From a virus (Duplodnaviria; Caudoviricetes), in IMG/VR virus record IMGVR_UViG_3300036770_008730: DNA of 64,000 nucleotides. One strand, given 5' to 3'. The translations under genes were made by a program, and so were the position numbers. Of the stretch, positions 8,426 to 64,000 are shown in pieces. Position 1 is the stretch's first letter. Each line of letters begins with the position of its first letter. The notes below the pieces were generated by a model that searched no databases, was not told where the DNA came from, and worked only from the letters and a program-made list of their open reading frames with translations.

Positions 8426-10933
8426 ATGAGTTTTAGTCACGATAAATTTCTTAAACCGATTACCTCAAAAGATAGGTATATTCAAATTTTAGATGATAAT
8501 GGGGTTACCAAACATCTAATTAATCCATTTTCCATTATTAATGTAATGGTTTCAAATAATCTTTTGAGAATAAATCTTAGGGAGAATAAATTTATATCTA
8601 TATTATTTAATTCGATAAACGAGTCTAAGCTTGCATTAGTCAATATACAAATTCAAATTGAACAACTTACTACTAAAGTTCCTTTTAATATAGAGAAATC
8701 TGTTGAAAATTATATACTCGATAAAACTAATATAAATTATGGAAATGGTTTAAGTTTAACAGGAGCGACATTAAGTGTTGGTGGTGATCTTACAGATACA
8801 TTATATATAAATGGTCAGTATAATAATTTAATTGGCGTTGGATTTGATATTATATCTTTCACATCATCTGTTTTTGATGTTGTTTCAGATTTTATAAGTT
8901 TAGATTCCATTGATAATATTCAGATTTTGGCACAAAATGATCTTGTGATAGATGCTGGACAAGTTATTTCTATAAGTGGTAGTAGTTCTTTAGTATCTAT
9001 AAGTGATGGAAGAGGGTTGGTATATCAGTCAGATTATTCTTCTAGTTTCGTTACTCAGTCAATTGTAGATAAATTATATGTTGATAATAAAGTAACTAAT
9101 ATATCCGAAATAAATAGCACAACTTTTAGTATAAATTCTGCAAATACGATAGTAGATGGCCATATTTTACCATCTCTAAATCTTACTTACGATTTAGGTT
9201 CAACTTCATCACAATGGAGAAGTTTACATGTTGGTTCTGGTTCTATTTATATAGGTGGTGTAACATTGTCTAGTTCTGGTGATAGTTTAGTTGTTAATAG
9301 CATATCTGTCGGTGGTCCAGATTCTAATTTAGTTATTTCATCTGGTAATAATAATCTTAATGTTTCTGGAGACTTGGTTGTTGATGGTAATATGACAGTA
9401 AATGGCACTACATCAACAATAAATACTGAAAATCTTATAGTAAAAGATGCACTTATTTTATTAGCCTCTGATCAATCAGGAACACCGACATTGGATAGTG
9501 GTATTCTTATAAATAGAGGAACTGGATTGACCCAAGGGTTCGTCTGGGATGAATCAGAAGGTCATTTTGCTTTATTATCAACAGAACAGTCATCTTTACT
9601 TGAACAAGAGATTCTAATTTCCTCATATTCAGATTTAAAGTTGAATAACTTAAAATCTCAGACAATTCAAATAACAGAGGGAGCTCAAAGTGATTATATT
9701 TTAATATCCGATGTTGATGGAAATGCTAGTTGGACGGCATCGATACCAGGAACTTCCGGTACATCCGGTTCTAGTGGTAGTTCTGGGACATCTGGTTCTA
9801 GTGGTAGTTCTGGAACATCCGGTTCTAGTGGTAGTTCTGGAACATCCGGTTCTAGTGGTAGTTCTGGGACATCTGGTTCTAGTGGTAGTTCTGGGACATC
9901 CGGTTCTAGTGGTAGTTCTGGAACATCCGGTTCTAGTGGTAGTTCTGGTGCTAATGGTACATCTGGCACATCAGGTATCGGTACAAACGGCACATCTGGT
10001 ACTTCAGGTATTGGTACAAATGGTACATCTGGAACTTCTGGAATAACTCCTATTACTGCAGCGGTTAACTATAGCCAAAATAAAGGTATCAAAGTTACTG
10101 TACCAAGTGGAGCTTCTTTACCTTATACTATTATATCTACATCAATAACTACTAATGGTGGTCCTGTGCAAGTCATTGTTAGTGGTGATGCCAACCCCGC
10201 ATCACCTGGATGGGGTAGAATATCTATTTATAGGGATAGTACAGAAATTGGACAAAGAGTTCAGTTTGAATCTGATGGTGGGAATGAAAACAATCCATAT
10301 TGTTTACAAGTTATAGATACGCCATCGAGCGGAACCTACACATATAGTTTAAAATTAACAAATCAAAGTGCAACTAATGTTGACTTTGGTGAAGATCAAG
10401 GACCTATTATTTCAGTAATTGAATTACAGAATGTAATTGGGGCGACCGGTGTTACTGGAAGTACCGGAGTCGCTGGGACCTCGGGAACCAGTGGAACAAC
10501 TCCGACCACAAGTCTATCCTTATCAGAGAACTTAACAGTCAGTGGAACTTCATCTTTCAATGGACTAACTGTTTTACAAGAGGTTATAGAGGTTATAAAT
10601 TCAACTCCTGGGGCTACCGCATCTACAGTTTTTTATGACTTTACTACTGGTTCTAACTGGTATCACTCCTCCGCTACTACAAACTATACGGCTAACTTTA
10701 CAAATGTACCTACAACAGATAATAGAGCTATTACAGCCACAATTATTATAAATCAAGGATCAACAGCCTATATACCAACTTCTGTTCAGATAAACAGTGT
10801 TTCACAAACAATTAAATGGTCTGGTGGTACTGCTTCAGGTAATGCTAATCAAGTTGATATAGTTGGATTCACATTTATCAGAAGTGGTGGTTCTTGGGCA
10901 CAAGTCTTAGGACAAATAAACACTTTTGATTAA
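8426..10933 (+). CDS. Tail fibre-like protein with Gly-X-Y (GTSGSSGSS) collagen-like tract
   Basis: 835 aa; fibre motifs (YDLGSTSSQWRSLHVG; LNVSGDLVVDG; SGNLTVSG-like), a Ser/Gly repeat, and a block shared with the 60698 fibre. Confidence 0.75.
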   Translation: MSFSHDKFLKPITSKDRYIQILDDNGVTKHLINPFSIINVMVSNNLLRINLRENKFISILFNSINESKLALVNIQIQIEQLTTKVPFNIEKSVENYILDKTNINYGNGLSLTGATLSVGGDLTDTLYINGQYNNLIGVGFDIISFTSSVFDVVSDFISLDSIDNIQILAQNDLVIDAGQVISISGSSSLVSISDGRGLVYQSDYSSSFVTQSIVDKLYVDNKVTNISEINSTTFSINSANTIVDGHILPSLNLTYDLGSTSSQWRSLHVGSGSIYIGGVTLSSSGDSLVVNSISVGGPDSNLVISSGNNNLNVSGDLVVDGNMTVNGTTSTINTENLIVKDALILLASDQSGTPTLDSGILINRGTGLTQGFVWDESEGHFALLSTEQSSLLEQEILISSYSDLKLNNLKSQTIQITEGAQSDYILISDVDGNASWTASIPGTSGTSGSSGSSGTSGSSGSSGTSGSSGSSGTSGSSGSSGTSGSSGSSGTSGSSGSSGTSGSSGSSGANGTSGTSGIGTNGTSGTSGIGTNGTSGTSGITPITAAVNYSQNKGIKVTVPSGASLPYTIISTSITTNGGPVQVIVSGDANPASPGWGRISIYRDSTEIGQRVQFESDGGNENNPYCLQVIDTPSSGTYTYSLKLTNQSATNVDFGEDQGPIISVIELQNVIGATGVTGSTGVAGTSGTSGTTPTTSLSLSENLTVSGTSSFNGLTVLQEVIEVINSTPGATASTVFYDFTTGSNWYHSSATTNYTANFTNVPTTDNRAITATIIINQGSTAYIPTSVQINSVSQTIKWSGGTASGNANQVDIVGFTFIRSGGSWAQVLGQINTFD
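9749..10042 (+). repeat. Coding tandem repeat: 7 x 27 nt (GTSGSSGSS) at 9758-9946 plus GTNGTSGTSGI units
   Basis: Direct reading: GGN ACA TCY GGT TCT AGT GGT AGT TCT x7. Confidence 0.95.
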
Positions 10934-10934
10934 T

Positions 10935-12980
10935 ATGTTAAGTAGGTTATCTTCTTTTTCTGGTCCTAAGTCTGTTTTATTCAAAATACCTGGTGGGTTT
11001 ACACTTTCTGGATTAATATTGAGATATCTTATATCAGACACTGATTCATATTCGGGAACAACTACGGTAACTGACTTAAAGAGTAATTCGAACGCAACAC
11101 TTAGCGGTGGTCCTACTTTTTCAGGTAATGGATATTTAAATTTTGATGGTGTAAATGATTATTTACTTACAAGTACATCACTTGATCCTGTTTTATCACC
11201 TGTTAATACATCCACTATAATTTCTTATTTTCTTTGGATTTACCCACAGGATAATGGTGTCATAGTTAATGAGTTAGGATCATCGAGTATATTAGCAGGA
11301 TGGCATGATGCACAGATTGAAATGGTTTCGGGAACTCTTAGATTTGCTGTTTGGCCTCACTTAGGAGGTTACATTACATCTTCTGTATTAACTCCGTTAA
11401 ACAATTGGTATTATGTTGGGTTAACATATGATGGCTCGACATTAAGAGCATGGGTAAATTCACAATTAGCAGGAAGTCTTACAATTACAAGACAATCACC
11501 CAATAGTGGTGGTGCTGATTTATTTTATGGAATTGCAGTAGCTGATACTACTAATTTAGGGGATGGCTCATATGCCAAAATGAAATTTGGTGATTTTCAT
11601 GTTTACAACATTGCTTTATCATCCCAACAAATTCTTAATAATTACAATGCTACTAGAAATAATTATATCTTTACAACTGGTATGTTAATCTGGATAGATG
11701 CAAATGATCCTCAAAGTTTTTCAGGCGGTTCAATTAGTGATTTAAGTGGTAATAATTACACACATACTTTAGCATCAGGTGCTACCTCATCTAATGTTTA
11801 TGGATTCAAATCATTTAATTGCACAGCTGTTTCAAATAGCTCTATCAGAGTAAATGGCACAGGACCGACACTTTCTACAACCGGATACACTTATGTGACC
11901 TGGGCAAGAATAAAGTCCGATTCTTCTACATATAGAACTCTTTTTAGAAGTGCTCCTAATGACCATGCTATTTTAGTTGATATAAATACAGATAATTTAG
12001 GATTCTGGGATAATGACTCTGGTGTTTCAGGGTTCAAAGATTCTGGGTATGATGTTACTTCAATCGAGGAAAAATGGGTTCAATATTCTGTTGTTGGTGA
12101 TTCTTCAAGTAGTATATTTTATATAAATGATGTACAAGTTGGTTCTGTTTCTTTTGGTGCAGGTGGTAATAAGCATGATTATTTTGGATCAATTGATGGC
12201 CAACCTTTTGGATATGTTGGAAACATGATGTTATATAATAGAAAGTTAACACAGACTGAGATTAAACAAAATTATGATGCTCTTAAAAATGTTTATGCTA
12301 ATGGTGATTTTGTAAGCAATAATTTGATACTATATTATAATCCGGCTAGTTATTTAAGCTATTCTGGTTCTGGAACGAATGTATCAAACTTATCATCTAA
12401 TTCACTAAACGGCACTTTATCAAATGTTACTTTTGGAAAAACATACTTTACTTTCAATGGATCCAATTCTCAAATTACTATTAATGATAATAGTTTGTTA
12501 GAACCCGGATCTGGCGATTGGACTATGGAGGTTTGGATTAAACCTACATCTCTCTCAGCACCCGGACAAGTAGTTTTGGGTAAGTTTGATCCTGGTGGAC
12601 TTTCAGCTGATATTTCTTATGCTATAAGAATTTCTAGTAGTAATGTTAGAGCTGATTTTAGTAATGGTACAAGCGCAGTAGTTACATCCAATTATACTCT
12701 TACCTTAAATACATGGACACATTTAGTTTATGTATTCAATAATGTTGCAAATAATAATATAATAACATATGTAAATGGTGTCTCTTACAGTACAACAACT
12801 CATAGTTTTGCTAGTATATTAAATACATCAGCTAACCTTTATTTAGGTTCATATAATGGTGGAGAATATTCTCAATATTTTACTGGTCAGATGGGAATAG
12901 TAAGATTATATAATTCTGCTTTAAGTGCCTCTGATGTTTCTAAAAACTTTGAGGCAAATAGATTAATTTACGGTATTTGA
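10935..12980 (+). CDS. Multi-LamG (concanavalin A-like lectin) virion protein, putative receptor-binding
   Basis: Three repeats with LamG hallmarks (LNFDGVNDY; NNWYYVGLTYDGSTLRAWVN; MGIVRLYNSALSASDVSKNF). Preferred ATG 10935. Confidence 0.8.
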   Translation: MLSRLSSFSGPKSVLFKIPGGFTLSGLILRYLISDTDSYSGTTTVTDLKSNSNATLSGGPTFSGNGYLNFDGVNDYLLTSTSLDPVLSPVNTSTIISYFLWIYPQDNGVIVNELGSSSILAGWHDAQIEMVSGTLRFAVWPHLGGYITSSVLTPLNNWYYVGLTYDGSTLRAWVNSQLAGSLTITRQSPNSGGADLFYGIAVADTTNLGDGSYAKMKFGDFHVYNIALSSQQILNNYNATRNNYIFTTGMLIWIDANDPQSFSGGSISDLSGNNYTHTLASGATSSNVYGFKSFNCTAVSNSSIRVNGTGPTLSTTGYTYVTWARIKSDSSTYRTLFRSAPNDHAILVDINTDNLGFWDNDSGVSGFKDSGYDVTSIEEKWVQYSVVGDSSSSIFYINDVQVGSVSFGAGGNKHDYFGSIDGQPFGYVGNMMLYNRKLTQTEIKQNYDALKNVYANGDFVSNNLILYYNPASYLSYSGSGTNVSNLSSNSLNGTLSNVTFGKTYFTFNGSNSQITINDNSLLEPGSGDWTMEVWIKPTSLSAPGQVVLGKFDPGGLSADISYAIRISSSNVRADFSNGTSAVVTSNYTLTLNTWTHLVYVFNNVANNNIITYVNGVSYSTTTHSFASILNTSANLYLGSYNGGEYSQYFTGQMGIVRLYNSALSASDVSKNFEANRLIYGI

Positions 12981-13109: not shown

Positions 13110-14069
13110 ATGATTAAAAGATATCTTCAGTTTATAAAAGAAGGTCAAATAGAAGAATTCAATTCACTTGGTGAGTGGATTGAATCTTTATATAGTGATG
13201 ATTATATCAAAAATTTAGTTGCTAGGTATACAAAGGAAATCGACCCTACAGTTAGACTGGCTAATGCAATTAACATTTTAGAGGACTTAGATAAAAAAGA
13301 ATTAAAATCTCAAGTAGAATATTATCTAAAGAATGGTATTGAAGAAAAAGAACCTAAATTTTTAATTTCTACTGATTTAGAACCTTTAACAGAATCAGAA
13401 ATATCTGTAGCTGGTAAAGGTATATTTACTTCCTTTTTGAAATGTCTTACAAGCTTAGGACAGAAGGAAAAAGAACCAGATTGGAAAATGTGTCCTGATA
13501 ACTTTTTACTATTCTACTATTTTCCACTTTTAGAATCTAATGTAGTAAAACAAATTTTTACAAGATTCAAATCTCTTTCTTATTATTTAGACTTAATTGA
13601 TTATCAAAAAAATGAAACAAGTTTATATTTTGGTATTAGATGTGATGGTTTATTTGAATATGGTTTGCATTATGAGACTTTCACACCAATAGGTCAATTC
13701 AAATTATCTAAATCAGTTATGAAATGGATATGTCAATTAGAATCTAAATCAGCATCATCTCTTAAAAAACAATTAGTTAATTTAACTTATGGAGATATAA
13801 TAACTTTAGGTTCAATTAAAAATGATATGAAAATTTTTACACCTGGTTATCACGAAAAGAAAATCACACCTTGTTTAAATGATAGAGTTATTAGTTTTGG
13901 TTATTATGGGTGTGGTAAATGGGATAATGGAAGATTAGACGAAGGAGAACTTAGTAATATAAAATCTAATTTTTCAACATTTGCTTTAAGTAGAAAATGG
14001 GGAGATAAGATACTAATAAGTATAAAACCAGAATCTTTCTGGATAAAAATACATATCAAATTGAAATGA
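13110..14069 (+). CDS. Hypothetical protein with capsid-targeting-like leader
   Basis: 319 aa, starts MIKRYLQFIKEGQIEE. Confidence 0.6.
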   Translation: MIKRYLQFIKEGQIEEFNSLGEWIESLYSDDYIKNLVARYTKEIDPTVRLANAINILEDLDKKELKSQVEYYLKNGIEEKEPKFLISTDLEPLTESEISVAGKGIFTSFLKCLTSLGQKEKEPDWKMCPDNFLLFYYFPLLESNVVKQIFTRFKSLSYYLDLIDYQKNETSLYFGIRCDGLFEYGLHYETFTPIGQFKLSKSVMKWICQLESKSASSLKKQLVNLTYGDIITLGSIKNDMKIFTPGYHEKKITPCLNDRVISFGYYGCGKWDNGRLDEGELSNIKSNFSTFALSRKWGDKILISIKPESFWIKIHIKLK

Positions 14070-15150: not shown

Positions 15151-15483
15151 ATGTACAATGTGTATCTCATATGCTCTGAAATCGAAGGTAAAAATCTTTA
15201 CAAAATTGGATACACTAGAAGAGAAATAGAGAAACGAATAAAAGAATTCAAAACAGGAAACGCTTCTTCTTTTTATATTGTAGATTCATTTCAATCAGAA
15301 TGGGGAACAAAAATCGAAGCGAGATTACACAGAGTTTTCAATCATAAAAAAATAAGTGGTGAATGGTTTGATCTAGATGAAAATGATATAAAAGAGTTTT
15401 CTAAAATTTGTAATTCTCTACACTCTAATTTTAAATTAATATCAACTCAAAATACTTATTATTTAGATAGAGGTGATTTTTAA
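15151..15483 (+). CDS. T5orf172/Mug113 (GIY-YIG-like) nuclease domain protein
   Basis: YKIGYT...EKRIKEFKTGN...EARLHRVF...GEWFDL. Confidence 0.85.
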   Translation: MYNVYLICSEIEGKNLYKIGYTRREIEKRIKEFKTGNASSFYIVDSFQSEWGTKIEARLHRVFNHKKISGEWFDLDENDIKEFSKICNSLHSNFKLISTQNTYYLDRGDF

Positions 15484-16620
15484 TGCCTCATTTATTTTAT
15501 CAATTACCATTTCAGCAGTTATTTGCTTAGTACATTCAAACTGTCTTTCTGTTCCTTTATGTAGGGGACACCAATTCCAATCTCCAGCATCTAATTTGTG
15601 AGTATTAAAGCAACCATTACAAACACTTTCATTAAAAACTCTAAATGTATTTGTTGTTGTTTCACTATATGGTTTACTAAATCCCGAAATTAAAACAACT
15701 GGTAGTCCACAAGACCAAGCTAACCAAGATAAACCAGACCCCAATCCAATAAATAAATCACATGTAGATAAATCATCAATAACTTCTTGTAAAGACCCAC
15801 CTTTGAATTTAGTAGTACCTTTTGGATGAAAGTTACCCATATATCCATCATTTTCTTTTGAATAGATAACAACTTCATATCCTATACTTTTTAAGTAATC
15901 AACTACTCTTTGCCAACCACCTGAATTATTCCAATATTTAGCCTGTGCTGTTGAGTGTAGACCTAATCCCACTTTCTTTTGTTTTTGTATATTTGGTTGT
16001 TTAAGTAGAGGTTTAATTTCAGTATATTCTAGACCAAGTATATCACAGATTGTTTGTTGTAGAGGTAGTAGTTTGAAATCTCTTGGATTTTGAGATGATT
16101 TAAATTGATCATTTTCATAATACCAACCAATTTTATACATCGCATAGATATTTTGAACTACTTGACCAGGATTTACAAATTGAATATTATTGTATTGTTC
16201 AATAAATAAATAATTGTGAAAAGTTGAAACTATAATCTCACAGTTGTGTTTTTTTCTGAACTCTTCAACATACGGAATCCAAGCTAGTGTATCACCAATT
16301 GAATTAGAATCAAATGCAATATAAACTCTTTTATTTTCAAAATTGACATTATAATCTAAAATAATTTCTTTTGATTTAGAGTTATGAATTTTTATATTCC
16401 AATTTACAAAGTATTTGATACCTGATCTTGACCACATGTTTTTTTTCAGTTTAGATTGATAATGCAATTTACCATCATTAAACATTTGTATTGTGTATTC
16501 ATCATCAATATCGCAATCAATTATTTCTACAAAAGCACCATCAACGAAATTGATGGATATTTTAGGTAAAATTACTTTTTTGATTATTTTTTGATTTTTT
16601 GTTAAGTTATCATATATCAT
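15463..16620 (-). CDS. Autotransporter O-heptosyltransferase (Aah/TibC, BAHT family)-like glycosyltransferase
   Basis: SIGDTLAWIPYVEEFRKKH, STAQAKYWN, FIGLGSGLSWLAW, VVLISGFS, and a tetra-Cys motif CNGC-x13-C-x11-C. Confidence 0.85.
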   Translation of the reverse strand: MIYDNLTKNQKIIKKVILPKISINFVDGAFVEIIDCDIDDEYTIQMFNDGKLHYQSKLKKNMWSRSGIKYFVNWNIKIHNSKSKEIILDYNVNFENKRVYIAFDSNSIGDTLAWIPYVEEFRKKHNCEIIVSTFHNYLFIEQYNNIQFVNPGQVVQNIYAMYKIGWYYENDQFKSSQNPRDFKLLPLQQTICDILGLEYTEIKPLLKQPNIQKQKKVGLGLHSTAQAKYWNNSGGWQRVVDYLKSIGYEVVIYSKENDGYMGNFHPKGTTKFKGGSLQEVIDDLSTCDLFIGLGSGLSWLAWSCGLPVVLISGFSKPYSETTTNTFRVFNESVCNGCFNTHKLDAGDWNWCPLHKGTERQFECTKQITAEMVIDKINEALKITSI

Positions 16621-20658: not shown

Positions 20659-20851
20659 AAGATACATCAGTCGAGAAAATTTATCTTACTATAAAGTAAG
20701 AACAGTCAAAGAATTAATTTCTTTTATAAAGAATCCAGATTGTTTAATAATTGAGGATTCTTATTCAGAAAAAATTTGTAATATAGTTAATAATACAAAA
20801 CAAGAATTTTTATATTCAAAGTTAAAAGAAATTGGATTTTATGAATCTTAA
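20645..20851 (+). CDS. Hypothetical protein
   Basis: 68 aa, overlaps both neighbours. Confidence 0.55.
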   Translation: MGFNKRYISRENLSYYKVRTVKELISFIKNPDCLIIEDSYSEKICNIVNNTKQEFLYSKLKEIGFYES

Positions 20852-21560
20852 TAAGAACTATTATAAAATTTTAGAAGTTGATTCTTCTTCTGATGAAAAG
20901 GTAATAAAAAAATCCTACTATAAGTTATCATATAAACATCATCCTGATAAAAAAGGAGATCCTATTGTCTTTGCTGAAATCACAGAAGCTTACAACATAC
21001 TTTCTACTGACAAAAGAAAAGAGTATGACTTAAAAAGTAAGTTTGGAAAGAATTATAATGAGTATTTTGAACTCTTTGAGATTAATTTTGAATTAGATCA
21101 AAAAAAAGAAAAAGAGAGATTTGAAAACTTCAAAAAAAATGATATTGATAATATTGTAATTAAGATTGATGATAGTTTTGACGGAACATTAGAATATGAA
21201 AGATGGATAAAGTGTAAAACTTGTGGAGGAACTGGAAAGGACAATTCAGCAAAAATTTTAATTAAAGACACAAATGGTAATGTTATTAAAACATTTGATG
21301 CTGATGATGGTTGTGATTTTTGTGAGGGAACTGGAAAAGACTATACCGGTTCTGATTGTAGTTTCTGCCATGGTAAAGGTAAAGTAGGACTTAATAATTG
21401 CAAAAATTGCAATGGTGAGAAAAGAATTCTTGGAAAACAAAAACTCAAAGGAATCAAATTAAATGGAAAAGAAACAAAATTAGACGCTATGGGTCATCAT
21501 TCTAAAAATGAAGTAGGAAAAGTTGGATATCTTCTATTGATAAATACTGAAAATTATTAA
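20841..21560 (+). CDS. dnaJ: DnaJ-family co-chaperone (J domain plus Zn fingers, short C-terminus)
   Basis: NYYKILEV...HPD; CKTCGGTG, CDFCEGTG, CSFCHGKG, CKNCNGEK. Preferred ATG 20841. Confidence 0.9.
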   Translation: MNLNKNYYKILEVDSSSDEKVIKKSYYKLSYKHHPDKKGDPIVFAEITEAYNILSTDKRKEYDLKSKFGKNYNEYFELFEINFELDQKKEKERFENFKKNDIDNIVIKIDDSFDGTLEYERWIKCKTCGGTGKDNSAKILIKDTNGNVIKTFDADDGCDFCEGTGKDYTGSDCSFCHGKGKVGLNNCKNCNGEKRILGKQKLKGIKLNGKETKLDAMGHHSKNEVGKVGYLLLINTENY

Positions 21561-24500
21561 TCCATTAAATCTATTACACTAGGACCGGAGATATCTTCTA
21601 TTCCAATTCCACCACCAGAAGATGAAGGTGCAGAGAATCCTATTCCAGCTCCGATTCCACTTACAGCAACATTAGATGCATTAACAGAGAAACTATCTAA
21701 TCCGATTGAAACATTATCTAAAAATTGAAAATTAGCATTTGAGTAGTCTATAAATGGTGCAATTCCTTGATATGGTATTTCAATTCCAAAATTGATATTA
21801 TTAGTAGTAAAGTATTGAAAGAAAGGTATCATATCTACTTCATAATATTTCAAATTATCAATTAAAATCGATGCGGTAAGCGCACCATACCAACCAGAAC
21901 CCCTGAAGTTCATAGAGAGATTAGTTTTATTGAAAAAATACTCTATCTTTTTTGAAACTGGTGTTAGTATGTGATTTACATTTTGATATACTGGAAAGAA
22001 AGACGCATTTACTGTTGTTGAAAATGTGCCTATAGCCGAACCATAATATATATCTCTTGTTACTACATTTAAATTATCAAAGTGAAGAATTGGTTGTGAT
22101 AATGTCTCCTCCTTATATAACGTTGTAATTTTAGATATTGTAGAATCATTAGACTCATAGTAAGGTGTTTGTGCACTCCATCTAGCTAAATTAAATTCAA
22201 CCATTGTATATCTAGACTTTGATACTTTTTCAGATACTCTAAAATTTGTTATTTCCGATGGTTCTGAAATATTTAATACACCGCCTGATGAAATTGCATC
22301 TATTTGCATCTCACTACCCACAAGTAAATCTTCTCTTACATTTGTCCAAGAATATGAAAACCCCGATCTAGAGATGTTTTTTGCTTTTGTCTCAATACTT
22401 CTTGAAAATACAATGGAGTTCAAACCACCAGATGAATAGGTCCAACCTAAATTCAAAAAATCTGTTGCGTCTACATTTGTTGGATCAAAATAATTTTCAA
22501 AATTCGAAGCTTCACCAATATAGTCATTGAAAATTTTATACTTTGTTCCAAGACTATAAGATAGTTCTAAGTTATTATAACTATTTCTGAAATAAGATGT
22601 ACTTGAAAGCACATCATCTGTAGGATATCCATACAGATTATTCTGTGAGTATTCTTTCAATGAAATGTTGTTTCTAATTGTATTTGGTCTTCCTATATTT
22701 ACGGCAGAGTATGTATAATAGTTTACATCTAGCCACGAATTGTATAAAAACACCGCATCAGAATCTAAATAATCTACTGATGATAGTTTTGATGTGTTGT
22801 TACTTTTAAAGGTGAAATTTTGAACTAAACCAGTTGAAATTCCAGTATAAATCGAACCACTCTCACTCTGTGTAGGTTCTGTACCATAATCTTTATCCGT
22901 TATAATTTGATACTCATTTGTTACAGTAACAACTGATGCTGTTCCATCATAAGATGAATTTATGCCTTTATTATCTTTATCTATATAAATCAGGTCATTT
23001 GTATAGAGTTTATGTGGTTGTGAGAAAGAAAGACCTAATTTATTACCTTTAGTAAAATATGTATTTGAAAAAGTTACAGAATAAAGTTGGCTAGAAAAAT
23101 GACCACCATCAAATGTCCCATCGATCCAACTTGAATCAAACATTTCGGTTATTAGTGGATAACCTTTGAACAGACCGGAGTTCCATATTCCAGTATAATA
23201 TCCATTTAGGAAAACGCCCGATAACCAAACATTTTTTGTAATTTTAATTCTATGAAATGGAGAATCTTTCTCAATTCTCTTCAATGGAAAGTTATTTATT
23301 AACTCGACCACGAAGGAATTTGAGTTTTTATTTATTATTGTGAAATAACCTTTTAATAATTTCCTATCTTCGTTGAAGTCAATTGCAACTATGTTTCCTA
23401 AAGATACCTTATCACCAATATTGAATTTTTCAATTGTTAATGGTGGTCCGATTATCTGAAATCTCCAAATTTTACCTCTATCCAGGCTAAAATATTGACC
23501 AATATCATATAATTCGTAGACCACCTCATCATATCTCCAACCGCTATTCCATACACCATTTTCCCAAATACCGGCCATGAATTTTCCATTTCCAATTTTT
23601 GAAAAAATCTGTTGAACATCTAATGATTGTGTTGCATTATATGTATTTCCGGTACCAGTATAAGCTGAAAAAGTTGCACCTGTTAATCCAATTGGCGTTA
23701 ATGATGTTGGATTCAAGTATAAATTACTATTAGTTGTTAGATACCTTCTATTGTTACCAGACCAATAACCACCTTCTATGTTAATATTTGATAATGCTTG
23801 AATAGTAGATGTGTCTGTAGTTCTCGCTTTTATTATCAAGTATTGTTTTCCAGTAAGTCCAAAGTATGCACTAAATGTAGATGATCCACTCATTCCACTT
23901 TGTGTATAACTAGCAAGTAGTTCAGCAGTATCGGGTATAAATTGAGGCGAATTTAGAATGTAATAGTCATTACTCGGTTTCTCTTGAGAAAGATATATGT
24001 CTATTCCATCATTGACGGAACCAGATGCCTTTGTGTAAGTGAATGATAAGTTGAATTTACCATAGTCAATATATTTTACTAAATAATTCAATGATGCTGA
24101 TCCTATTACTACTCTTGCCTTTACGAAACCACCATATAGATTTGCTTCAACAATTTGAGCTGGGAAAATTGTTCCAGCCACATCATCATACCAGATATAT
24201 GAGTTTGTATCTGGATAATAACACCATCCTCTTCCATCAGTTGATGCTGAGAATGATATTGCGGTAGATTGAGTTCCACTATTACCGTCTCTCCACCATG
24301 CAAAACCTTGAATATCAAAATCTATTTCATTTATTCTTGTTTCGTATAAAGCTTCTGAATTTCCACCCAATCCAAATGCATTATTAGCCTTGTAAATTAC
24401 ATAGTCGTTTGATGTTATATTTGTGCTTGGATTTGAATAAAAATATAGGAAACCATTTCCTGGTGATGGTGGTTCCATTCCAGCAACAAAACTATTTCTA

Positions 24501-24817
24501 TCAACATTTGAATAATCAATGCTATCACCCCAGACTGTATTTGCTGAAAATGATGCGGAAGAGTTGAAGAAATTACCAACGTAAGTTGTATATTGATATG
24601 TTTTTTTACTATTGAATGTTGTCGCTGTAGGATTCCTATAAATTAATTTTGGTAAATTTCCAGGAAATGGATATGATATATTTACTCCTAAACCAGTTCC
24701 GGTCAATGTCCAATTAGGAATACTTGAGTCAAAGTAGCTAGTTGCCCAATAGTATCCACTACTTGGTAATCCAAATGATATTACTGCTGACATTGGAGGC
24801 GCACTAGGAAATCCCAT
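21557..24817 (-). CDS. Large putative virion protein with W-x-x-G repeats
   Basis: 1086 aa; GIWENGVWNSGW and WLSGVFLNGYYTGIWNSG arrays, similar to ORF 2..3067. Confidence 0.6.
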   Translation of the reverse strand: MGFPSAPPMSAVISFGLPSSGYYWATSYFDSSIPNWTLTGTGLGVNISYPFPGNLPKLIYRNPTATTFNSKKTYQYTTYVGNFFNSSASFSANTVWGDSIDYSNVDRNSFVAGMEPPSPGNGFLYFYSNPSTNITSNDYVIYKANNAFGLGGNSEALYETRINEIDFDIQGFAWWRDGNSGTQSTAISFSASTDGRGWCYYPDTNSYIWYDDVAGTIFPAQIVEANLYGGFVKARVVIGSASLNYLVKYIDYGKFNLSFTYTKASGSVNDGIDIYLSQEKPSNDYYILNSPQFIPDTAELLASYTQSGMSGSSTFSAYFGLTGKQYLIIKARTTDTSTIQALSNINIEGGYWSGNNRRYLTTNSNLYLNPTSLTPIGLTGATFSAYTGTGNTYNATQSLDVQQIFSKIGNGKFMAGIWENGVWNSGWRYDEVVYELYDIGQYFSLDRGKIWRFQIIGPPLTIEKFNIGDKVSLGNIVAIDFNEDRKLLKGYFTIINKNSNSFVVELINNFPLKRIEKDSPFHRIKITKNVWLSGVFLNGYYTGIWNSGLFKGYPLITEMFDSSWIDGTFDGGHFSSQLYSVTFSNTYFTKGNKLGLSFSQPHKLYTNDLIYIDKDNKGINSSYDGTASVVTVTNEYQIITDKDYGTEPTQSESGSIYTGISTGLVQNFTFKSNNTSKLSSVDYLDSDAVFLYNSWLDVNYYTYSAVNIGRPNTIRNNISLKEYSQNNLYGYPTDDVLSSTSYFRNSYNNLELSYSLGTKYKIFNDYIGEASNFENYFDPTNVDATDFLNLGWTYSSGGLNSIVFSRSIETKAKNISRSGFSYSWTNVREDLLVGSEMQIDAISSGGVLNISEPSEITNFRVSEKVSKSRYTMVEFNLARWSAQTPYYESNDSTISKITTLYKEETLSQPILHFDNLNVVTRDIYYGSAIGTFSTTVNASFFPVYQNVNHILTPVSKKIEYFFNKTNLSMNFRGSGWYGALTASILIDNLKYYEVDMIPFFQYFTTNNINFGIEIPYQGIAPFIDYSNANFQFLDNVSIGLDSFSVNASNVAVSGIGAGIGFSAPSSSGGGIGIEDISGPSVIDLMD

Positions 24818-24851
24818 TTACTATTTATTAATTTTTTATTATTCTCTATCC

Positions 24852-45092: not shown

Positions 45093-45093
45093 T

Positions 45094-48000: not shown

Positions 48001-48279
48001 GAATTTATTTGCATTAGAAGTTTGTATTAATGACCCATTTGCGTCTATACCATATAAAGAATTAATGTTATTATTCAGTCTGTCAATTTCAGATTTGAGA
48101 GCTGCGAATGATGGTAGATTAAAACTCCTTAAAACACCAGCATCGTCAAAAACCTGGATATTAACCGATGGTTCAGTTGTAGTTATTAGTGTATTAATTT
48201 TTGTGAGAATATCTACTACATTTTTATTGTAAGATACAATTTGGTCAGCCACTTTAGGAAATGTACTTTGTATTGCCAT
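45094..48279 (-). CDS. Large putative virion structural protein with coiled coils
   Basis: 1061 aa; FN3-like RIKSISEVGWPESPVESDWS; late motif upstream. Confidence 0.55.
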   Translation of the reverse strand: MAIQSTFPKVADQIVSYNKNVVDILTKINTLITTTEPSVNIQVFDDAGVLRSFNLPSFAALKSEIDRLNNNINSLYGIDANGSLIQTSNANKFKKLITVDLNREPAPLTSLGGVTQFKSDVNWFFDGLLDPLLSVEFDITSQVESNVRKCLVRRYIVNFAKDSTGGFTPVGQSALNSFNSQFRGNATIVLQDFLNWHSTTPGVIEPLNPKYDEQVFDLLPNELQYDGVFSIIRIQEDRINRKLWYVLDTLDYLVIATNTTSKLTAGDEVIINISQTSTRYKVIEVNTSQSLPRVRFERVEGIEPLRVGIGTLKIYSPILQSKKIKVSVGYNERNVVFMKPINTENHLVARRWSLGTGYWSNDLRLSADTSDNGKTMEQYYTEVVYDYGVVLQDLVAKKTPNSLAGTPVAPTLNAANFKVVQINKHLTDTPDSNLIKQKFNLQNSIKSELQQIENAIQDRNKIAKVTKFKSESDRRTANKEIDELSKKKDSKIKQQSALTQEIIDLSKSPKIKVQPKFRVRGFWTIPDPIVTRGTKPQEIVQFRVQYRYVSKDGRESPIETFDISTVNARANTRVKASFSNWKELKTDARKRIFDPKTNEYSWQIEDIESADTPNINQIDVDIQTNEKIEMRIKSISEVGWPESPVESDWSEILTVEFPDDLNNVLNENEFILQEATKDDLKIKMSSELTSRGLDEHLADTVVLNNKVFHHDSTKIISGFKDENGINLDLFEYLKSLEDRIRGLEELVRRAKGELEVIIIRNNQEFIVSRGSETTFNIDCEDYMDVFSGTGVNTGRVYANNVYVIKDFVIKVRNRATQSPLGLISSRTYLQNPDFYNTGAPQTFWVNDRHELITSDSSGQTRSHLDNQFIWMTNYDAITQNAVTKLSENIGNSFTRNNNNSITNVLSSNEFNIGYNETSILSFVGNNKSLIDSSKWVDTTVSVASTTKFLTTIHPVVKDLETLVENNSKKVKEIDPGDKNSIIIPINIYFKVNSLDINQKGLNYRYVDFNNIQNTVKHVKKIKFYLENESENRPFTFTVKFNLFRNKVVLKKVVVPSNLSVL

Positions 48280-60549: not shown

Positions 60550-60556
60550 ATAATTC

Positions 60557-60565: not shown

Positions 60566-60572
60566 TTTTTTA

Positions 60573-60659
60573 TTAATTAAAATTTTTAATAGAATTATCC
60601 TCTTGCGTTGCTATCGAGAAAGTGCCTATAAGAGAGACGTTTGATAATATTCTATTCAT
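60573..60659 (-). pseudogene. 28-aa mini-ORF duplicating the N-terminus of the downstream tail fibre
   Basis: MNRILSNVSLIGTFSIATQEDNSIKNFN* versus MNRILSNLSIIGTFSIAT (16/18 identical). Confidence 0.55.
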
Positions 60660-60697
60660 TTAAGTCGTTTAATTCTTATTATAAATAATAATCAATA

Positions 60698-63600
60698 TTA
60701 TCCTATAATTATTATGCTATATGTTCCAGTTACCGTAACTGAAACATCCACAGTATTGTTTGTTCTATTATTTGCTAAAAATCCAACTAAATCACCAACA
60801 ACATTATCCCAAACACTGATTTGTATAAATTGAGTTTGTAAGTTATGAGTAATTGTTTGTGATACTGATGCGGTTAATCCTATAGTTGTTGAGTATTTTG
60901 TCGCAATATTAATTGATGATGGTGTTGCCCATCTAGCATTTCCACTCGTATCAGAAACCATTATATAATTCGAACCAGCTCCATTAGTCATTCTAAATCC
61001 AGTTGTTGAAACGGTACCAACCACATCAAGTTTATAATTAGGAGAAGAATTATTAACACCAATATTATCGACTGAAGCATCTAGGAAAAACAGGTGTGTT
61101 TGTGTATCTCCTTCTATTCTAAAATCCGCGGTTGAGGAACCACTATCATTAAATACTGATTCTCCGTTTTCAGTTATTATCGAAAAATTCTGAGTAGCAC
61201 CAGAAACGTTTAAGTAAAGACCAATGTTTGATGTTCCAGATGAAGTTATCTGATTATATGATCCATAATTTATATTACCGGACTGAACTACATTGTATAA
61301 TCCATAGTTTGTTCCAGTTCCAGATATCAATTGATACACACCATAATTAGTATTACCGTCACTTATGCTAGAGTTTATACCATAAGCAGTGGTTGACTTT
61401 TGTTGAACTGATATCTGAACTCCGGTTTTTGTTCCCGATGTTGTAGTGAAAACTTGCACTAAGTTACCTGTTGATTGAGATGATGTCAGTCCACCAACTC
61501 TTGCAAACATACCATATTTTGTACCCGTGCCCTCAGATAAGTTATTGATGTATAAACCTCTTGAGTTTGAAGTAGTTGCTGAAGATCCTATGAAAAGTAT
61601 TGCACCATAATCCTCAGCACCTATTGAAGAATGTGCATTACCAATAGAGGCCATCAATCCAACATTATACTTTGCATTCAATACTATACTTCTTAATCCA
61701 ACTGAAAAAGTAGAGCTCGATTGTATTTCTGAATCAACACCATAAATATAATTAGAATTACCAGTATAAATTACTGATTTTACACCGGCAGAATCTTGAC
61801 CATTTGTTACAAACCTATTAGTAATAAGACCACCAGATGAAAATATTTCTCCCTCTACGTCAAGTTTATAACCTGGAGAATTTTTACCTATACCAACTCT
61901 ATCGGTAGAACCGTCTGTGAATAATAGATTTTGATCGGTATCACCTTCTATTCTGAAGTCGTAGTCAAATCCATCATTATTAATTGTTATAGATGATGAT
62001 GCTACGGTTAATCTGTTATAATCAGTAGATGCTATGTGTGTACTATCAAACTTATCTGAATAAACATAAGTTAGAGCGTATCCTAATCCCACAAAACTAT
62101 AAATTGGTGATTGAGATTCATGTCCAACAACTAACCATCCTTTGTCATATGTTGTTGTACCCGTTCTTATTTCTAAGTAATTATTATTAGTATTGTGTAT
62201 TCTATTTCCGGTGAATGACAAATCGGTATTTGCAAAATTAGCTGATGATACCGTAGGAGATAACCAACTTGCTAGTCCACCACCATCACTTGTTAGAATA
62301 TATCCATTTTGTGCACCATTCGTTAATTTTAATTGACTTAGTGTAGCACCTGCTGCTCTAATATTTGAGTAAGATGATATATTAACATTTCCTAAAACAC
62401 TATTACCATCGTTGGTTTGAATAAACGAGAACTCATCGGCTGATTCATCCCAAATAAAACCTTGTGTGGATCCAATACCTCTGTTAATAAAGAATCCAGA
62501 ATCTAAAACAGGTGTACCAGATTGACTTGACGCCAATAGTATGATTGGATCAGAAACAGTCAAATTAGTAGTATTTATAACAGATGCTGATCCAAATACT
62601 GAGAATGTACCACTTACAAATAGATTACCAGAAACATTAAGTGTGGAACCATCAAATGTAAGATTACTTTGAGCTATTGCTTGATTTGTAGATGATCCAG
62701 TAGCTGTCAGAATTCTAAAACTTGCGGGTTGAGAAATAGTATTGAATCCAGTTCCACTAGAACCGGAAGTGCCACTAGAACCAGATGTTCCAGAAGTGCC
62801 ACTAGAACCAGATGTTCCAGAAGTGCCACTAGAACCAGATGTTCCAGAAGTGCCACTAGAACCAGATGTTCCACTAGAACCAGATGTTCCAGAAGTGCCA
62901 CTAGAACCAGATGTTCCACTAGAACCAGATGTTCCAGATGTTCCGCTAGAACCAGATGTTCCAGATGTTCCAGATGTTCCGCTAGAACCAGAAGTCCCAG
63001 AAGTGCCATTGGAACCAGAAGTCCCAGAAGTGCCATTGGAACCAGAAGTCCCAGAAGTGCCATTGGAACCAGAAGTCCCAGAAGTGCCATTGGAACCAGA
63101 TGTTCCAGAAGTACCATTGGAACCAGAAGTCCCAGAAGTGCCATTGGAACCAGATGTTCCACTAGAACCAGATGTTCCAGATGTTCCGCTAGAACCAGAA
63201 GTCCCAGAAGTGCCATTGGAACCAGAAGTCCCAGAAGTGCCATTGGAACCAGATGTTCCAGAAGTACCATTGGATCCGGATGTTCCAGATGTTCCGCTAG
63301 AACCAGATGTTCCAGAAGTGCCATTGGAACCAGAAGTCCCAGAAGTGCCATTAGAACCAGAAGTCCCAGAAGTGCCATTGGAACCAGATGTTCCAGAAGT
63401 ACCATTGGATCCGGATGTTCCAGATGTTCCGCTAGAACCAGATGTTCCAGAAGTGCCATTGGAACCAGAAGTCCCAGAAGTGCCATTAGAACCAGAAGTC
63501 CCAGAAGTGCCATTGGAACCAGATGTTCCGCTAGAACCAGATGTTCCGCTACCAGATGTTCCAGAAGTACCATTGGAACCAGAAGTCCCAGAAGTGCCAT

Positions 63601-64000
63601 TGGAACCAGATGTTCCGCTAGAACCAGATGTTCCGCTACCAGATGTTCCAGAAGTGCCATTGGATCCGGATGTTCCAGATGTTCCACTAGAACCAGATGT
63701 TCCAGAAGTGCCATTAGAACCAGAAGTCCCAGAAGTGCCATTAGAACCAGAAGTCCCAGAAGTGCCATTGGAACCAGATGTTCCGCTAGAACCAGATGTT
63801 CCGCTACCAGATGTTCCAGAAGTACCATTGGAACCAGAAGTCCCAGAAGTGCCATTGGAACCAGATGTTCCGCTAGAACCAGATGTTCCGCTACCAGATG
63901 TTCCAGAAGTGCCATTGGATCCGGATGTTCCAGATGTTCCACTAGAACCAGATGTTCCAGAAGTGCCATTAGAACCAGAAGTCCCAGAAGTGCCATTAGA
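60698..64000 (-). CDS. Long tail fibre with >400-residue Gly-Ser/Thr/Asn collagen-like tract (5'-truncated by window)
   Basis: The frame of track ORF 60698..62563 stays open to the window edge (SNGTSGTSGSNGT...SSGTGFNTISQPASFRILTATG...NVSGNLFVSG); at least 1100 aa; fibre motifs VGIGKNSP..KLDV.G. Confidence 0.8.
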   Translation of the reverse strand, partial: SNGTSGTSGSNGTSGTSGSSGTSGTSGSNGTSGTSGSGTSGSSGTSGSNGTSGTSGSNGTSGTSGSGTSGSSGTSGSNGTSGTSGSNGTSGTSGSNGTSGTSGSSGTSGTSGSNGTSGTSGSGTSGSSGTSGSNGTSGTSGSNGTSGTSGSGTSGSSGTSGSNGTSGTSGSNGTSGTSGSNGTSGTSGSSGTSGTSGSNGTSGTSGSNGTSGTSGSNGTSGTSGSNGTSGTSGSSGTSGTSGSNGTSGTSGSNGTSGTSGSNGTSGTSGSSGTSGTSGSSGTSGSNGTSGTSGSNGTSGTSGSNGTSGTSGSNGTSGTSGSNGTSGTSGSNGTSGTSGSSGTSGTSGTSGSSGTSGTSGSSGTSGSSGTSGTSGSSGTSGSSGTSGTSGSSGTSGTSGSSGTSGTSGSSGTSGSSGTGFNTISQPASFRILTATGSSTNQAIAQSNLTFDGSTLNVSGNLFVSGTFSVFGSASVINTTNLTVSDPIILLASSQSGTPVLDSGFFINRGIGSTQGFIWDESADEFSFIQTNDGNSVLGNVNISSYSNIRAAGATLSQLKLTNGAQNGYILTSDGGGLASWLSPTVSSANFANTDLSFTGNRIHNTNNNYLEIRTGTTTYDKGWLVVGHESQSPIYSFVGLGYALTYVYSDKFDSTHIASTDYNRLTVASSSITINNDGFDYDFRIEGDTDQNLLFTDGSTDRVGIGKNSPGYKLDVEGEIFSSGGLITNRFVTNGQDSAGVKSVIYTGNSNYIYGVDSEIQSSSTFSVGLRSIVLNAKYNVGLMASIGNAHSSIGAEDYGAILFIGSSATTSNSRGLYINNLSEGTGTKYGMFARVGGLTSSQSTGNLVQVFTTTSGTKTGVQISVQQKSTTAYGINSSISDGNTNYGVYQLISGTGTNYGLYNVVQSGNINYGSYNQITSSGTSNIGLYLNVSGATQNFSIITENGESVFNDSGSSTADFRIEGDTQTHLFFLDASVDNIGVNNSSPNYKLDVVGTVSTTGFRMTNGAGSNYIMVSDTSGNARWATPSSINIATKYSTTIGLTASVSQTITHNLQTQFIQISVWDNVVGDLVGFLANNRTNNTVDVSVTVTGTYSIIIIG
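62756..64000 (-). repeat. Coding 9-nt-based tandem array (GTS/GSS/GSN) with 255-nt higher-order period
   Basis: The marker GGATCCGG recurs at 63272, 63407, 63662 and 63917 (spacings 135, 255, 255). Confidence 0.95.

What the first reader, a model, noticed from the sequence alone, without database searches (positions are those of the whole stretch)
8426..64000. Possible virion glycosylation system: Ser/Thr-rich Pro-free collagen-like fibres plus a phage Aah/TibC-type glycosyltransferase
Seen: two fibre genes carry Gly-X-Y tracts in which X/Y are almost only Ser/Thr/Asn (about 98 aa at 9749-10042; at least 415 aa at 62756-64000), and the same window encodes a BAHT-family transferase (15463..16620) with the tetra-Cys motif. 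Established: Aah/TibC are iron-containing enzymes that O-heptosylate many Ser residues of repetitive autotransporter passengers using ADP-heptose. Inference: the phage enzyme hyper-glycosylates these tracts, which could stabilise a Pro-free triple helix, shield it from proteases, or create a mucin-like adhesive fibre. The genes are not adjacent, and many Bacteroidota lack heptose in their LPS, so the donor sugar may differ. The tracts also hold many N-G-T sequons.
Basis: partly seen in the sequence, partly recalled or inferred. Interest (0 to 1): 0.85.

Follow-up and report, generated by a model that had tools for sequence, protein, structure and literature searches.

The report
Phage sugar-transferase paired with Ser/Thr collagen-like fibres
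A large environmental phage carries a TibC/Aah-type protein sugar-transferase from a distinct branch of that family, one that sits next to proline-free Gly-Thr/Ser-Ser/Asn "collagen-like" genes in phages and in bacteria, so it most likely coats the phage's own fibres with sugar, though no experiment has shown this.

Summary
There are two fibre genes with Pro-free Gly-X-Y tracts. One lies at 8426-10933 (+). The other lies at 60698-64000 on the minus strand and is cut by the window end. A true BAHT-family enzyme lies at 15463-16620 (-): TIGR04414 scores 286 bits against a cut-off of 200, and the model matches TibC at TM 0.83.

- Of 24 dereplicated IMG/VR BAHT loci with at least 5 kb of flank on both sides, 22 have a Ser/Thr/Asn Gly-X-Y gene within 10 kb (median 1.25 kb), usually downstream and convergent as in the window.
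- 22 of 70 viral contigs with Ser/Thr tracts carry a BAHT, against 0 of 38 with Pro/Gln tracts.
- In bacterial chromosomes, the closest BAHT relatives sit beside small secreted (GTS)n proteins. More distant relatives sit beside AIDA-type autotransporters.

All tract-linked enzymes form one well-supported clade. This clade has replaced the adenine-reading Arg-286 of TibC with Val/Ile/Leu, so heptose from ADP-heptose is not assured. No other sugar gene lies in the window.

Fibre glycosylation is therefore a well-supported inference and remains unproven. I found no paper describing this pairing. Notes from this scan report it on at least eight other genomes.

The parts
8426..10933 (+). Fibre gene 1 (P0001, 835 aa), the proposed acceptor
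   Evidence: Translation. PF01391 43 bits. PHROG tail-fibre families. Positional orthologues in relatives G010, G001, G007 and G008.
9749..10048 (+). Ser/Thr Gly-X-Y tract of fibre 1 (aa 442-541), Pro-free, with two G-I-G breaks
   Evidence: 27-nt and 33-nt tandem arrays.
9356..9733 (+). 126-aa module shared by both fibres (fibre 1 aa 311-436), directly N-terminal to the tract
   Evidence: BLASTP 52% identity, E 1e-34. The same module occurs in annotated tail-fibre proteins of cyanophages and in the Mel-JY01 'structural protein'.
10926..12980 (+). Laminin_G_3 / ConA-like virion protein, co-oriented with fibre 1. Relatives of it lie in 32 of the 80 BAHT loci.
   Evidence: PF13385 E 6e-47. phrog_8510 'virion structural protein' E 4e-50. 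Cluster 3.
15151..15483 (+). T5orf172/MUG113 (homing-endonuclease-like) gene that overlaps the 3' end of the transferase gene
   Evidence: PF13455 E 1e-19 and PF10544 E 9e-13.
15463..16620 (-). BAHT-family (Aah/TibC-type) protein O-glycosyltransferase, stand-alone, convergent with the fibre 1 operon
   Evidence: TIGR04414 286.4 bits against a cut-off of 200. TibC E 6e-63. AF2 model pLDDT 90, TM 0.83-0.84 to 4rap/4rb4. D110, T224, K228, W299 and C334/337/351/363 are kept; V280 stands in place of TibC R286.
60698..64000 (-). Fibre gene 2 (P0002, at least 1100 aa, 5' end beyond the window), the proposed acceptor
   Evidence: Translation. PF01391 174 bits. PHROG tail-fibre families.
62741..64000 (-). 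Ser/Thr/Asn Gly-X-Y tract of fibre 2 (at least 420 aa; GTS 89, GSN 26, GSS 20)
   Evidence: 27-nt tandem array, 45 copies.
62264..62641 (-). The shared 126-aa fibre module in fibre 2 (aa 454-579), here C-terminal to the tract

Best explanation
The window comes from an environmental jumbo phage; near-complete relatives are 436-476 kb. I propose that its 385-aa enzyme is a cytoplasmic protein O-glycosyltransferase of the BAHT (Aah/TibC) family. It belongs to a separate clade whose acceptors are not autotransporter beta-helices but Pro-free (Gly-Thr/Ser-Ser/Asn)n tracts.

During late infection the enzyme would add many sugars to Thr/Ser of the tracts in the two fibre proteins, before or during fibre assembly. 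The residue these tracts share is a hydroxy amino acid at the X position, so that is the most likely attachment site.

Shown: family membership, fold, retention of the catalytic base, of the phosphate- and sugar-binding residues and of the four-Cys iron finger, the gene linkage and the clade structure. Inferred: that the tracts are the acceptor, that the fibres are virion parts, and that the sugars compensate for the lack of proline and charge pairs, or shield and hydrate the fibre. The donor is ADP-heptose by homology, but this is uncertain because the adenine-reading arginine has been replaced.
For: (1) Membership: TIGR04414 286 bits against a cut-off of 200. TibC E 6e-63. Model TM 0.83-0.84 to TibC over about 376 columns, with the next fold (GT9) at about 0.5.

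(2) Linkage in phages: 60 of 80 IMG/VR BAHT loci hold a Ser/Thr/Asn Gly-X-Y ORF within 10 kb. After dereplication at 90% identity this is 31 of 39 clusters, and 22 of 24 among clusters with at least 5 kb on both sides. The median gap is 1.25 kb, and 22 of the 31 are downstream and convergent, which is the window's own arrangement.

(3) Converse test and control: 22 of 70 contigs with (G-[ST]-[ST])12 DNA carry TIGR04414, against 0 of 38 with (G-[PQH]-X)12; Fisher p = 2.5e-5.

(4) Own lineage: the BAHT-positive relatives G002, G007 and G010 have Ser/Thr tracts. The BAHT-negative relatives G003, G005, G009 and G013 have Gln/Pro/Phe tracts.

(5) Bacteria: 41-53% identical BAHTs in Methylobacter, Methylococcales, Polaromonas, Burkholderiaceae and Binatia lie directly beside 100-340-aa proteins. 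These proteins have a signal or lipoprotein peptide followed by little more than a (GTS/GTA/GTT)n tract, and they sit in chromosomal context. BAHTs at 33-40% identity lie beside AIDA-type autotransporters.

(6) One branch with SH-aLRT 100 holds all tract-linked rows and none of the AIDA-linked rows. It has its own signature: V/I/L at TibC position 286 and a 'YM' thumb tip.

(7) The tract grammar is shared. Over 13,885 phage triplets, X is Thr 71% or Ser 22%, Pro is 0.13% and charged residues are 2.6%.

(8) The cultured Microcystis phage Mel-JY01 has the same layout.

(9) Glycosyl-Thr makes (Gly-Pro-Thr)10 triple-helical, whereas the bare peptide is a coil (PMC11923368).
Against: There is no direct evidence of modification, and no RNA or proteome data.

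In this window the genes are not adjacent: fibre 1 ends 4.5 kb from the enzyme gene and fibre 2 lies 44 kb away. The window holds no other glycosyltransferase, methyltransferase or nucleotide-sugar gene.

TibC R286A abolishes or strongly reduces activity, yet this clade carries Val/Ile/Leu at that position, so the donor, or even the activity, could differ.

Some Ser/Thr-tract phages lack a detectable BAHT: G001 at 84% completeness, and two complete genomes of 43-58 kb. Two BAHT clusters with full flanks lack a tract.

The contigs are related to one another, so the Fisher test overstates independence. No BAHT-collagen fusion protein was seen.
Confidence: 0.65

Rival explanations
1. The enzyme does glycosylate virion proteins, but at other sites than the Gly-X-Y tracts. 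Candidates are the Ser/Thr/Asn-rich beta-strand regions of the same fibres or the LamG-type protein, which are closer to the beta-helical 'strand-loop-strand' acceptors of TibC/Aah. On this view the tracts merely travel in the same fibre genes.
For: Classical BAHTs act on beta-helix repeats. The non-collagen parts of both fibres are also rich in Ser/Thr/Asn/Gly. LamG-type neighbours occur in 32 of 80 loci.
Against: In the betaproteobacterial pairs the mature partner protein is almost nothing but the tract. Tracts are the commonest neighbour (60 of 80 loci against 32 of 80 for LamG). BAHT-negative relatives keep their fibres but with Gln/Pro/Phe tracts.
Confidence: 0.13
2. The enzyme modifies a host structure, such as LPS core, a host adhesin or another envelope protein, to block superinfection or alter receptors. 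It sits among the fibre genes only because that region is the phage's hypervariable cargo site.
For: Glycosyltransferases in fibre-region islands of pelagimyophages have been read this way (PMC7029224). A homing-endonuclease-like gene abuts the enzyme gene. The BAHT genes of the lineage are not orthologous, which suggests mobility.
Against: The family's characterised members are protein O-glycosyltransferases acting on their neighbouring gene's product. The same clade is paired with tract proteins in bacterial chromosomes, where superinfection exclusion does not apply. Among collagen-bearing contigs, BAHT was found only in those with Ser/Thr tracts (0 of 38 with Pro/Gln tracts).
Confidence: 0.1
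3. There is no functional link. The enzyme gene is inactive or is a selfish passenger, and the Ser/Thr tracts are unmodified flexible spacers.
For: Arg-286, needed for full TibC activity, is missing. Some tract-bearing phages have no BAHT.
Against: Asp-110, Thr-226, Lys-230, Trp-305 and all four Cys are invariant or nearly so across more than 70 homologues at about 55% identity. That pattern indicates purifying selection on a working active site. The linkage recurs in 31 dereplicated phage clusters and in several bacterial orders.
Confidence: 0.05

Closest known systems
TibC-TibA and Aah-AIDA-I of E. coli (bacterial autotransporter heptosyltransferases, BAHT; PDB 4rap/4rb4; PMC4358343)
   Same: Same protein family and fold: N-terminal beta-barrel, GT-B core, thumb and four-Cys iron finger. 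The catalytic Asp-110 and the residues Thr-226, Lys-230 and Trp-305 are kept. The logic is also the same: a cytoplasmic enzyme encoded near a long repetitive Ser/Thr-bearing acceptor that is later displayed outside the cell.
   Different: The acceptor here would be a Gly-X-Y tract, not a beta-helix. It sits in phage fibres or in small secreted bacterial proteins, with no autotransporter. The enzymes form a separate clade (SH-aLRT 100) with V/I/L in place of the adenine-reading Arg-286 and a different thumb tip. In most phage relatives the domain is fused to, or clustered with, FkbM methyltransferase, GT1/GT4, GT25, a second GT9-like enzyme and PF11397-type enzymes.
BclA, the collagen-like exosporium glycoprotein of Bacillus anthracis (cited in PMC11923368; details from my own knowledge)
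   Same: A prokaryotic collagen-like (Gly-X-Thr) region carrying many O-linked sugars on Thr and forming a surface nap of filaments. The sugars include a methylated one, which parallels the FkbM methyltransferases found in the phage cassettes.
   Different: BclA triplets are rich in Pro (GPT). Its glycosyltransferases are not BAHT-family enzymes. It is a spore protein, not a phage protein.
Galactosyl-threonine stabilisation of the triple helix (Riftia cuticle collagen; Ac-(Gly-Pro-Thr)10; PMC11923368)
   Same: It provides a physical precedent: glycosylated Thr can replace hydroxyproline as the helix stabiliser.
   Different: There Thr sits at Y next to Pro at X. Here Thr/Ser sits at X, Y is Ser/Asn and there is no Pro at all.
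Virion glycosylation in mycobacteriophages and collagen glycosylation in Mimivirus (my own knowledge, not checked here)
   Same: Virus-encoded glycosyltransferases decorate the virus's own structural proteins.
   Different: The enzyme families and acceptor sequences differ. Mimivirus modifies hydroxylysine, and the mycobacteriophages modify capsid and tail-tube termini.

Membership tests
BAHT (Aah/TibC; NCBIfam TIGR04414) | Full-length score above the curated equivalog cut-off | tested here: met
   286.4 bits against a cut-off of 200, covering aa 22-378 of 385.
BAHT (Aah/TibC; NCBIfam TIGR04414) | TibC protomer fold: N-terminal beta-barrel, GT-B catalytic domain, beta-hairpin thumb and iron-finger insertion | tested here: met
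   AF2 model pLDDT 90.1. TM 0.83-0.84 and rmsd 3.0 A to 4rap/4rb4 over about 376 columns. Strands at aa 20-103 form the barrel.
BAHT (Aah/TibC; NCBIfam TIGR04414) | Catalytic base Asp-110, beta-phosphate ligands Thr-226 and Lys-230, and heptose-O4 ligand Trp-305 | tested here: met
   D110, T224, K228 and W299 of the window protein align to them. They are invariant in 78 homologues.
BAHT (Aah/TibC; NCBIfam TIGR04414) | Arg-286, which hydrogen-bonds adenine N1 and is the stated basis of ADP-sugar specificity | tested here: not met
   Val-280 in the window protein. V/I/L in 54 of 58 IMG/VR rows, in 21 of the 22 non-Arg bacterial rows (one Thr) and in Mel-JY01. Arg in all autotransporter-linked rows.
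BAHT (Aah/TibC; NCBIfam TIGR04414) | Four conserved Cys of the 1Fe-0S iron finger | tested here: met
   C334, C337, C351 and C363 align to TibC C339, C342, C358 and C370. Iron binding itself cannot be tested here.
BAHT (Aah/TibC; NCBIfam TIGR04414) | A neighbouring autotransporter acceptor with AIDA-type strand-loop-strand repeats | tested here: not met
   No PF03797 or PF16168 protein in the window. Such neighbours occur only beside the 33-40% identical bacterial relatives.
BAHT (Aah/TibC; NCBIfam TIGR04414) | O-heptosylation of Ser with ADP-heptose; dodecameric ring | not testable with these tools
   This needs biochemistry. No gmhA was found in seven complete BAHT-bearing phage genomes.
Collagen-like triple helix (PF01391) | Long runs with Gly at every third residue, scoring above the Pfam cut-off | tested here: met
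   43 and 174 bits against 27.2. Uninterrupted runs of up to 25 and 88 triplets.
Collagen-like triple helix (PF01391) | Known stabilisers: Pro/Hyp at X/Y, or Lys-Gly-Glu/Asp charge pairs | tested here: not met
   The window tracts have no Pro and no charged residue. The related phage tracts have 0.13% Pro and 2.6% charged residues. Stabilisers as described in PMC11923368.
Collagen-like triple helix (PF01391) | Trimer with a triple-helical conformation | not testable with these tools
CD, EM or a structure is needed.
Phage tail or virion fibre | Homology of non-repeat parts to known fibre proteins | tested here: inconclusive
   The PHROG tail-fibre hits rest mostly on the repeats. The shared 126-aa module matches annotated tail-fibre proteins of Synechococcus phages at 33-40% identity and the Mel-JY01 'structural protein'. 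There is no solved homologue and the Atlas gives only leads below 0.9.

The most novel reading that the evidence does not exclude
A dedicated clade of BAHT enzymes, found in phages and in free-living bacteria, serves as the functional substitute for prolyl hydroxylation. On this reading, dense O-glycosylation of X-position Thr/Ser is what lets proline-free, uncharged (Gly-Thr-Ser/Asn)n chains of up to about 2,600 residues fold into, or persist as, rod-like fibres. Because the adenine-reading arginine is replaced, the donor may be something other than ADP-heptose. This would be a glycosylation-dependent type of collagen built by a virus.
Probability: 0.3. Interest if true: 0.85.

Novelty: new variant of a known kind. 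Interest (0 to 1): 0.72.

Why it matters
If true, it extends a family known only from virulence autotransporters of enterobacteria to a second acceptor class that appears to be much more widespread in nature. More than 4,000 homologues were found, most of them metagenomic.

It would also explain how phages can encode fibres of hundreds to thousands of residues made only of Gly, Thr, Ser and Asn. It would add a new kind of virion glycosylation, which bears on host recognition, fibre stability and the antigenicity of phages.

The system is directly testable. The two-gene cassette in Methylobacter luteus and the Microcystis phage Mel-JY01 are both listed as isolates. The position-286 signature gives a simple sequence marker for telling the two kinds of BAHT apart in annotation, where all are now labelled 'autotransporter strand-loop-strand O-heptosyltransferase'.

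Tried and rejected
- **Whole genome:** none is held for the window, so nucleotide-sugar genes could be sought only in the window and in relatives.
- **Close DNA match in the phage collection:** a megablast of one 5.2-kb stretch of the window (24852-30068) against the phage collection found nothing.
- **Heptose pathway:** gmhA is absent from ten relatives or BAHT-bearing genomes, seven of them complete BAHT carriers. Only sub-threshold pfkB-kinase and cytidylyltransferase hits were found. The kinase lies next to the BAHT in G010 only, and I do not count it as heptose evidence.
- **Other glycan enzymes in the window:** none was found by Pfam, nor by tblastn with the GT9-like, PF11397, FkbM/HtrL and kinase proteins of the relatives.
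- **Solved homologues of the fibre modules:** none.
- **Atlas search on fibre 2:** only leads below 0.9.
- **Literature:** searches on TibC/BAHT with phage or collagen-like terms found no paper on this pairing. No paper on Mel-JY01 is held.
- **Fusions:** no BAHT-collagen fusion appears among the 120 listed homologues.
- **RNA data:** no RNA runs hold the locus.
- **Rows left out of the control set:** giant-virus (GVMAG) contigs, two contigs already in the Ser/Thr set (L190, L255), listed loci L359-L381 (beyond the 50-locus limit of one call), and records that are not held.


Full report
**What is in the window**

The 64-kb window has about 29% G+C and is phage-like. It holds SbcC, an NAD-dependent ligase, a primase-like gene, a Dam-type methylase, a sigma factor, ClpP, SmpB, thioredoxin, DnaJ and several very large ORFs with no database match. 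The ligase finds relatives in IMG/VR at 58-80% identity on contigs of up to 476 kb. Two of these are rated 95-97% complete at 436 and 476 kb, so the source is a jumbo phage. The exact enzyme sequence lies on four public contigs, two of them 0.2-1 Mb long. Near-identical DNA occurs in subsurface and freshwater metagenomes from several studies. No host can be named from these data.

**The observation**

- Fibre 1 (8426-10933, +) has a 100-aa tract of GTS and GSS triplets with two G-I-G breaks.
- Fibre 2 lies on the minus strand (60698-64000) and is cut by the window end. Its first 420 residues are GTS, GSN and GSS triplets with five G-x-G breaks and 27 N-G-T sequons. The plus-strand frame over the same DNA is an artefact of the repeat.
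- Both fibres score above the Pfam collagen cut-off.
- Both share a 126-aa module, which lies before the tract in fibre 1 and after it in fibre 2. That module also occurs in annotated tail-fibre proteins of cyanophages.
- The tracts contain no proline and no charged residue.

**The enzyme**

The 385-aa protein at 15463-16620 (-) is a genuine BAHT.
- TIGR04414 scores 286 bits against a cut-off of 200.
- It aligns to TibC at E 6e-63.
- A confident model (pLDDT 90) superposes on TibC at TM 0.83-0.84, whereas LPS heptosyltransferases reach only about 0.5.

I mapped the residues that the TibC paper defines (PMC4358343). The catalytic Asp-110, Thr-226, Lys-230, Trp-305 and the four iron-finger Cys are all present. 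Arg-286, which reads adenine N1 and whose alanine mutant loses activity, is Val here. Pro-300, the stereoselectivity determinant in TibC, is Gly.

**Is the enzyme linked to such tracts elsewhere?**

IMG/VR holds at least 448 relatives. I took the best 80 loci with 10 kb of flank.
- Sixty of the 80 loci contain an ORF with at least eight Gly-X-Y triplets whose X and Y residues are at least 60% Ser/Thr/Asn. Some of these ORFs exceed 3,000 aa.
- Most loci without such an ORF end within 0-3 kb of the enzyme gene.
- After dereplication at 90% enzyme identity, 31 of 39 clusters are positive. Among clusters with at least 5 kb on both sides, 22 of 24 are positive.
- The median distance is 1.25 kb. In 22 of the 31 positive clusters the tract gene lies downstream and convergent.

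The window has the same geometry, with 4.5 kb of co-oriented fibre-operon genes in between.

**Converse test and control**

An arbitrary sample of viral contigs matching (GGN WSN WSN)12 gave 70 searchable records. Twenty-two of them carry TIGR04414, including 5 of the 8 that are at least 90% complete, even though median completeness is below 20%. A matched sample with (G-[Pro/Gln/His]-X)12 tracts gave 0 of 38, and 0 of 6 among complete records. Fisher's exact test gives p = 2.5e-5. This is not corrected for relatedness among contigs.

None of the 15 loci around the ligase gene holds a Ser/Thr tract.

**The window's own lineage**

The three BAHT-positive records (G002, G007, G010) have Ser/Thr tracts. 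Four BAHT-negative records (G003, G005, G009, G013) have Gln/Pro/Phe tracts. G001, rated 84% complete, has Ser/Thr tracts but no detectable BAHT. In G010 the fibre gene and the enzyme gene are adjacent and convergent.

**Bacterial genomes**

The one genome scan returned 37 loci.
- Relatives at 41-53% identity occur in Methylobacter, other Methylococcales, Polaromonas, Burkholderiaceae and a Binatia MAG. They lie directly next to PF01391-positive ORFs of 100-340 aa.
- The flanking genes are housekeeping genes (Mfd, a DEAD-box helicase, a P-type ATPase), so the context is chromosomal.
- The partner proteins begin with a Sec signal or a lipobox. In the betaproteobacteria they consist of little more than a (GTS/GTA)n tract.
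- Relatives at 33-40% identity (Selenomonadaceae and some Proteobacteria), like the E. coli plasmid enzyme, lie next to AIDA-type autotransporters or an ESPR protein.

A maximum-likelihood tree of 100 domains puts every tract-linked row, phage and bacterial, on one side of a branch with SH-aLRT 100 and length 0.52. No autotransporter-linked row falls on that side. The same split is seen at position 286: V/I/L on the tract-linked side and Arg on the other. It is also seen at the thumb tip.

**Grammar of the acceptor**

Over 13,885 triplets from 57 distinct phage ORFs, GTS, GTN and GSS make up 87%.
- X is Thr (71%) or Ser (22%).
- Y is Ser (57%) or Asn (37%).
- Pro is 0.13% and charged residues are 2.6%.

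**Mechanism proposed**

By analogy with TibC/Aah, which act in the cytoplasm on the product of a neighbouring gene, the enzyme most likely adds sugars to many tract Thr/Ser residues of the fibre proteins before assembly. These tracts lack both known triple-helix stabilisers, namely imino acids and Lys-Gly-Asp/Glu pairs. Glycosyl-Thr is known to turn a coil-forming (Gly-Pro-Thr)10 peptide into a triple helix (PMC11923368). Stabilisation is therefore a reasonable role but an untested one. Shielding or hydration of an extended chain is equally possible.

In most phage relatives the BAHT domain is fused to, or clustered with, an FkbM methyltransferase, GT1/GT4, GT25, a second GT9-like enzyme and a PF11397-type transferase. 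That suggests a methylated oligosaccharide in those phages. The window has only the stand-alone BAHT, which suggests a simpler glycan here, unless further genes lie outside the window.

**Donor**

[quoted passage not shown] Against this, the clade-wide loss of Arg-286 and the absence of gmhA from seven complete BAHT-bearing phage genomes leave the donor open. A phage could still draw on the host's ADP-heptose pool.

**Rivals**

- *Glycosylation of other parts of the fibres.* This fits the beta-helix preference of classical BAHTs, but it does not fit the minimal bacterial partners.
- *Modification of the host surface.* This is how fibre-region glycosyltransferases have been read in pelagimyophages. 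It does not explain the bacterial cassettes or the specificity for tract type.
- *An inactive passenger gene.* This is unlikely given the invariant active-site residues across about 78 homologues.

**Novelty**

I found no paper that links BAHT enzymes to collagen-like proteins or to phage fibres. Earlier notes of this scan report the same theme on at least eight other genomes, all as unproven inference. I reached my reading before seeing them and tested the co-occurrence independently. The enzyme is a new member of a known family. The system, meaning the clade, its acceptor class and its virion context, is a new variant of a known kind.

Noticed in passing
L177 (GenBank PP395634, Microcystis phage Mel-JY01) 1-3052 and 9143-9983: The record annotates minus-strand 'hypothetical protein' ORFs (1-651, 739-2298, 9361-9898) over DNA that reads on the plus strand as Ser/Thr Gly-X-Y genes. 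One is at least 1016 aa, with short GPP caps at the tract ends. These annotations look like wrong-strand calls over repeats.
   Followed up: partly
window 15151-15483 (+): A T5orf172/MUG113 (GIY-YIG-type homing-endonuclease-like) gene overlaps the 3' end of the transferase gene by 21 bp. The BAHT genes of the lineage are not each other's closest relatives. The enzyme gene may therefore be mobile.
   Followed up: partly
window 51163-54612 and 20832-21560: There is a run of host-like housekeeping genes in the phage: a sigma-70 factor, ClpP, thioredoxin and SmpB (177 bits, without a tmRNA or any tRNA in the window), plus a DnaJ with a zinc-finger domain.
   Followed up: no
window 21557-30068 (-) and 40962-48279 (-): Four very large ORFs (1086, 1738, 1376 and 1061 aa) have no Pfam hit. 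Only one PHROG of unknown function was found (phrog_29329, for 45094-48279). They are conserved in the lineage relatives.
   Followed up: no
G003, G005, G009 and G013 (loci L102-L105, L111, L118): Relatives of this phage that lack the transferase carry collagen-like genes rich in Gln, Pro and Phe instead of Ser/Thr. One is 2246 aa long. In G013 such a gene lies next to the orthologue of window ORF 13110-14069.
   Followed up: partly
L134 (G010:C1:2721-3467): A short pfkB-family sugar kinase, distantly similar to the kinase domain of RfaE/HldE (well below cut-off), lies between the fibre gene and the BAHT gene in the 476-kb relative. The same kinase sits elsewhere in other relatives and is absent from the window.
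   Followed up: partly
L001-L080, for example L037:7151-11755: In most phage relatives the BAHT domain is one module of polyproteins of 700-1500 aa that also carry GT1/GT4, GT25 and FkbM methyltransferase domains. A PF11397 'GlcNAc' transferase gene accompanies it in 27 loci. From memory, PF11397 is the family of the polypeptide O-GlcNAc transferases of Dictyostelium and trypanosomes.
   Followed up: partly
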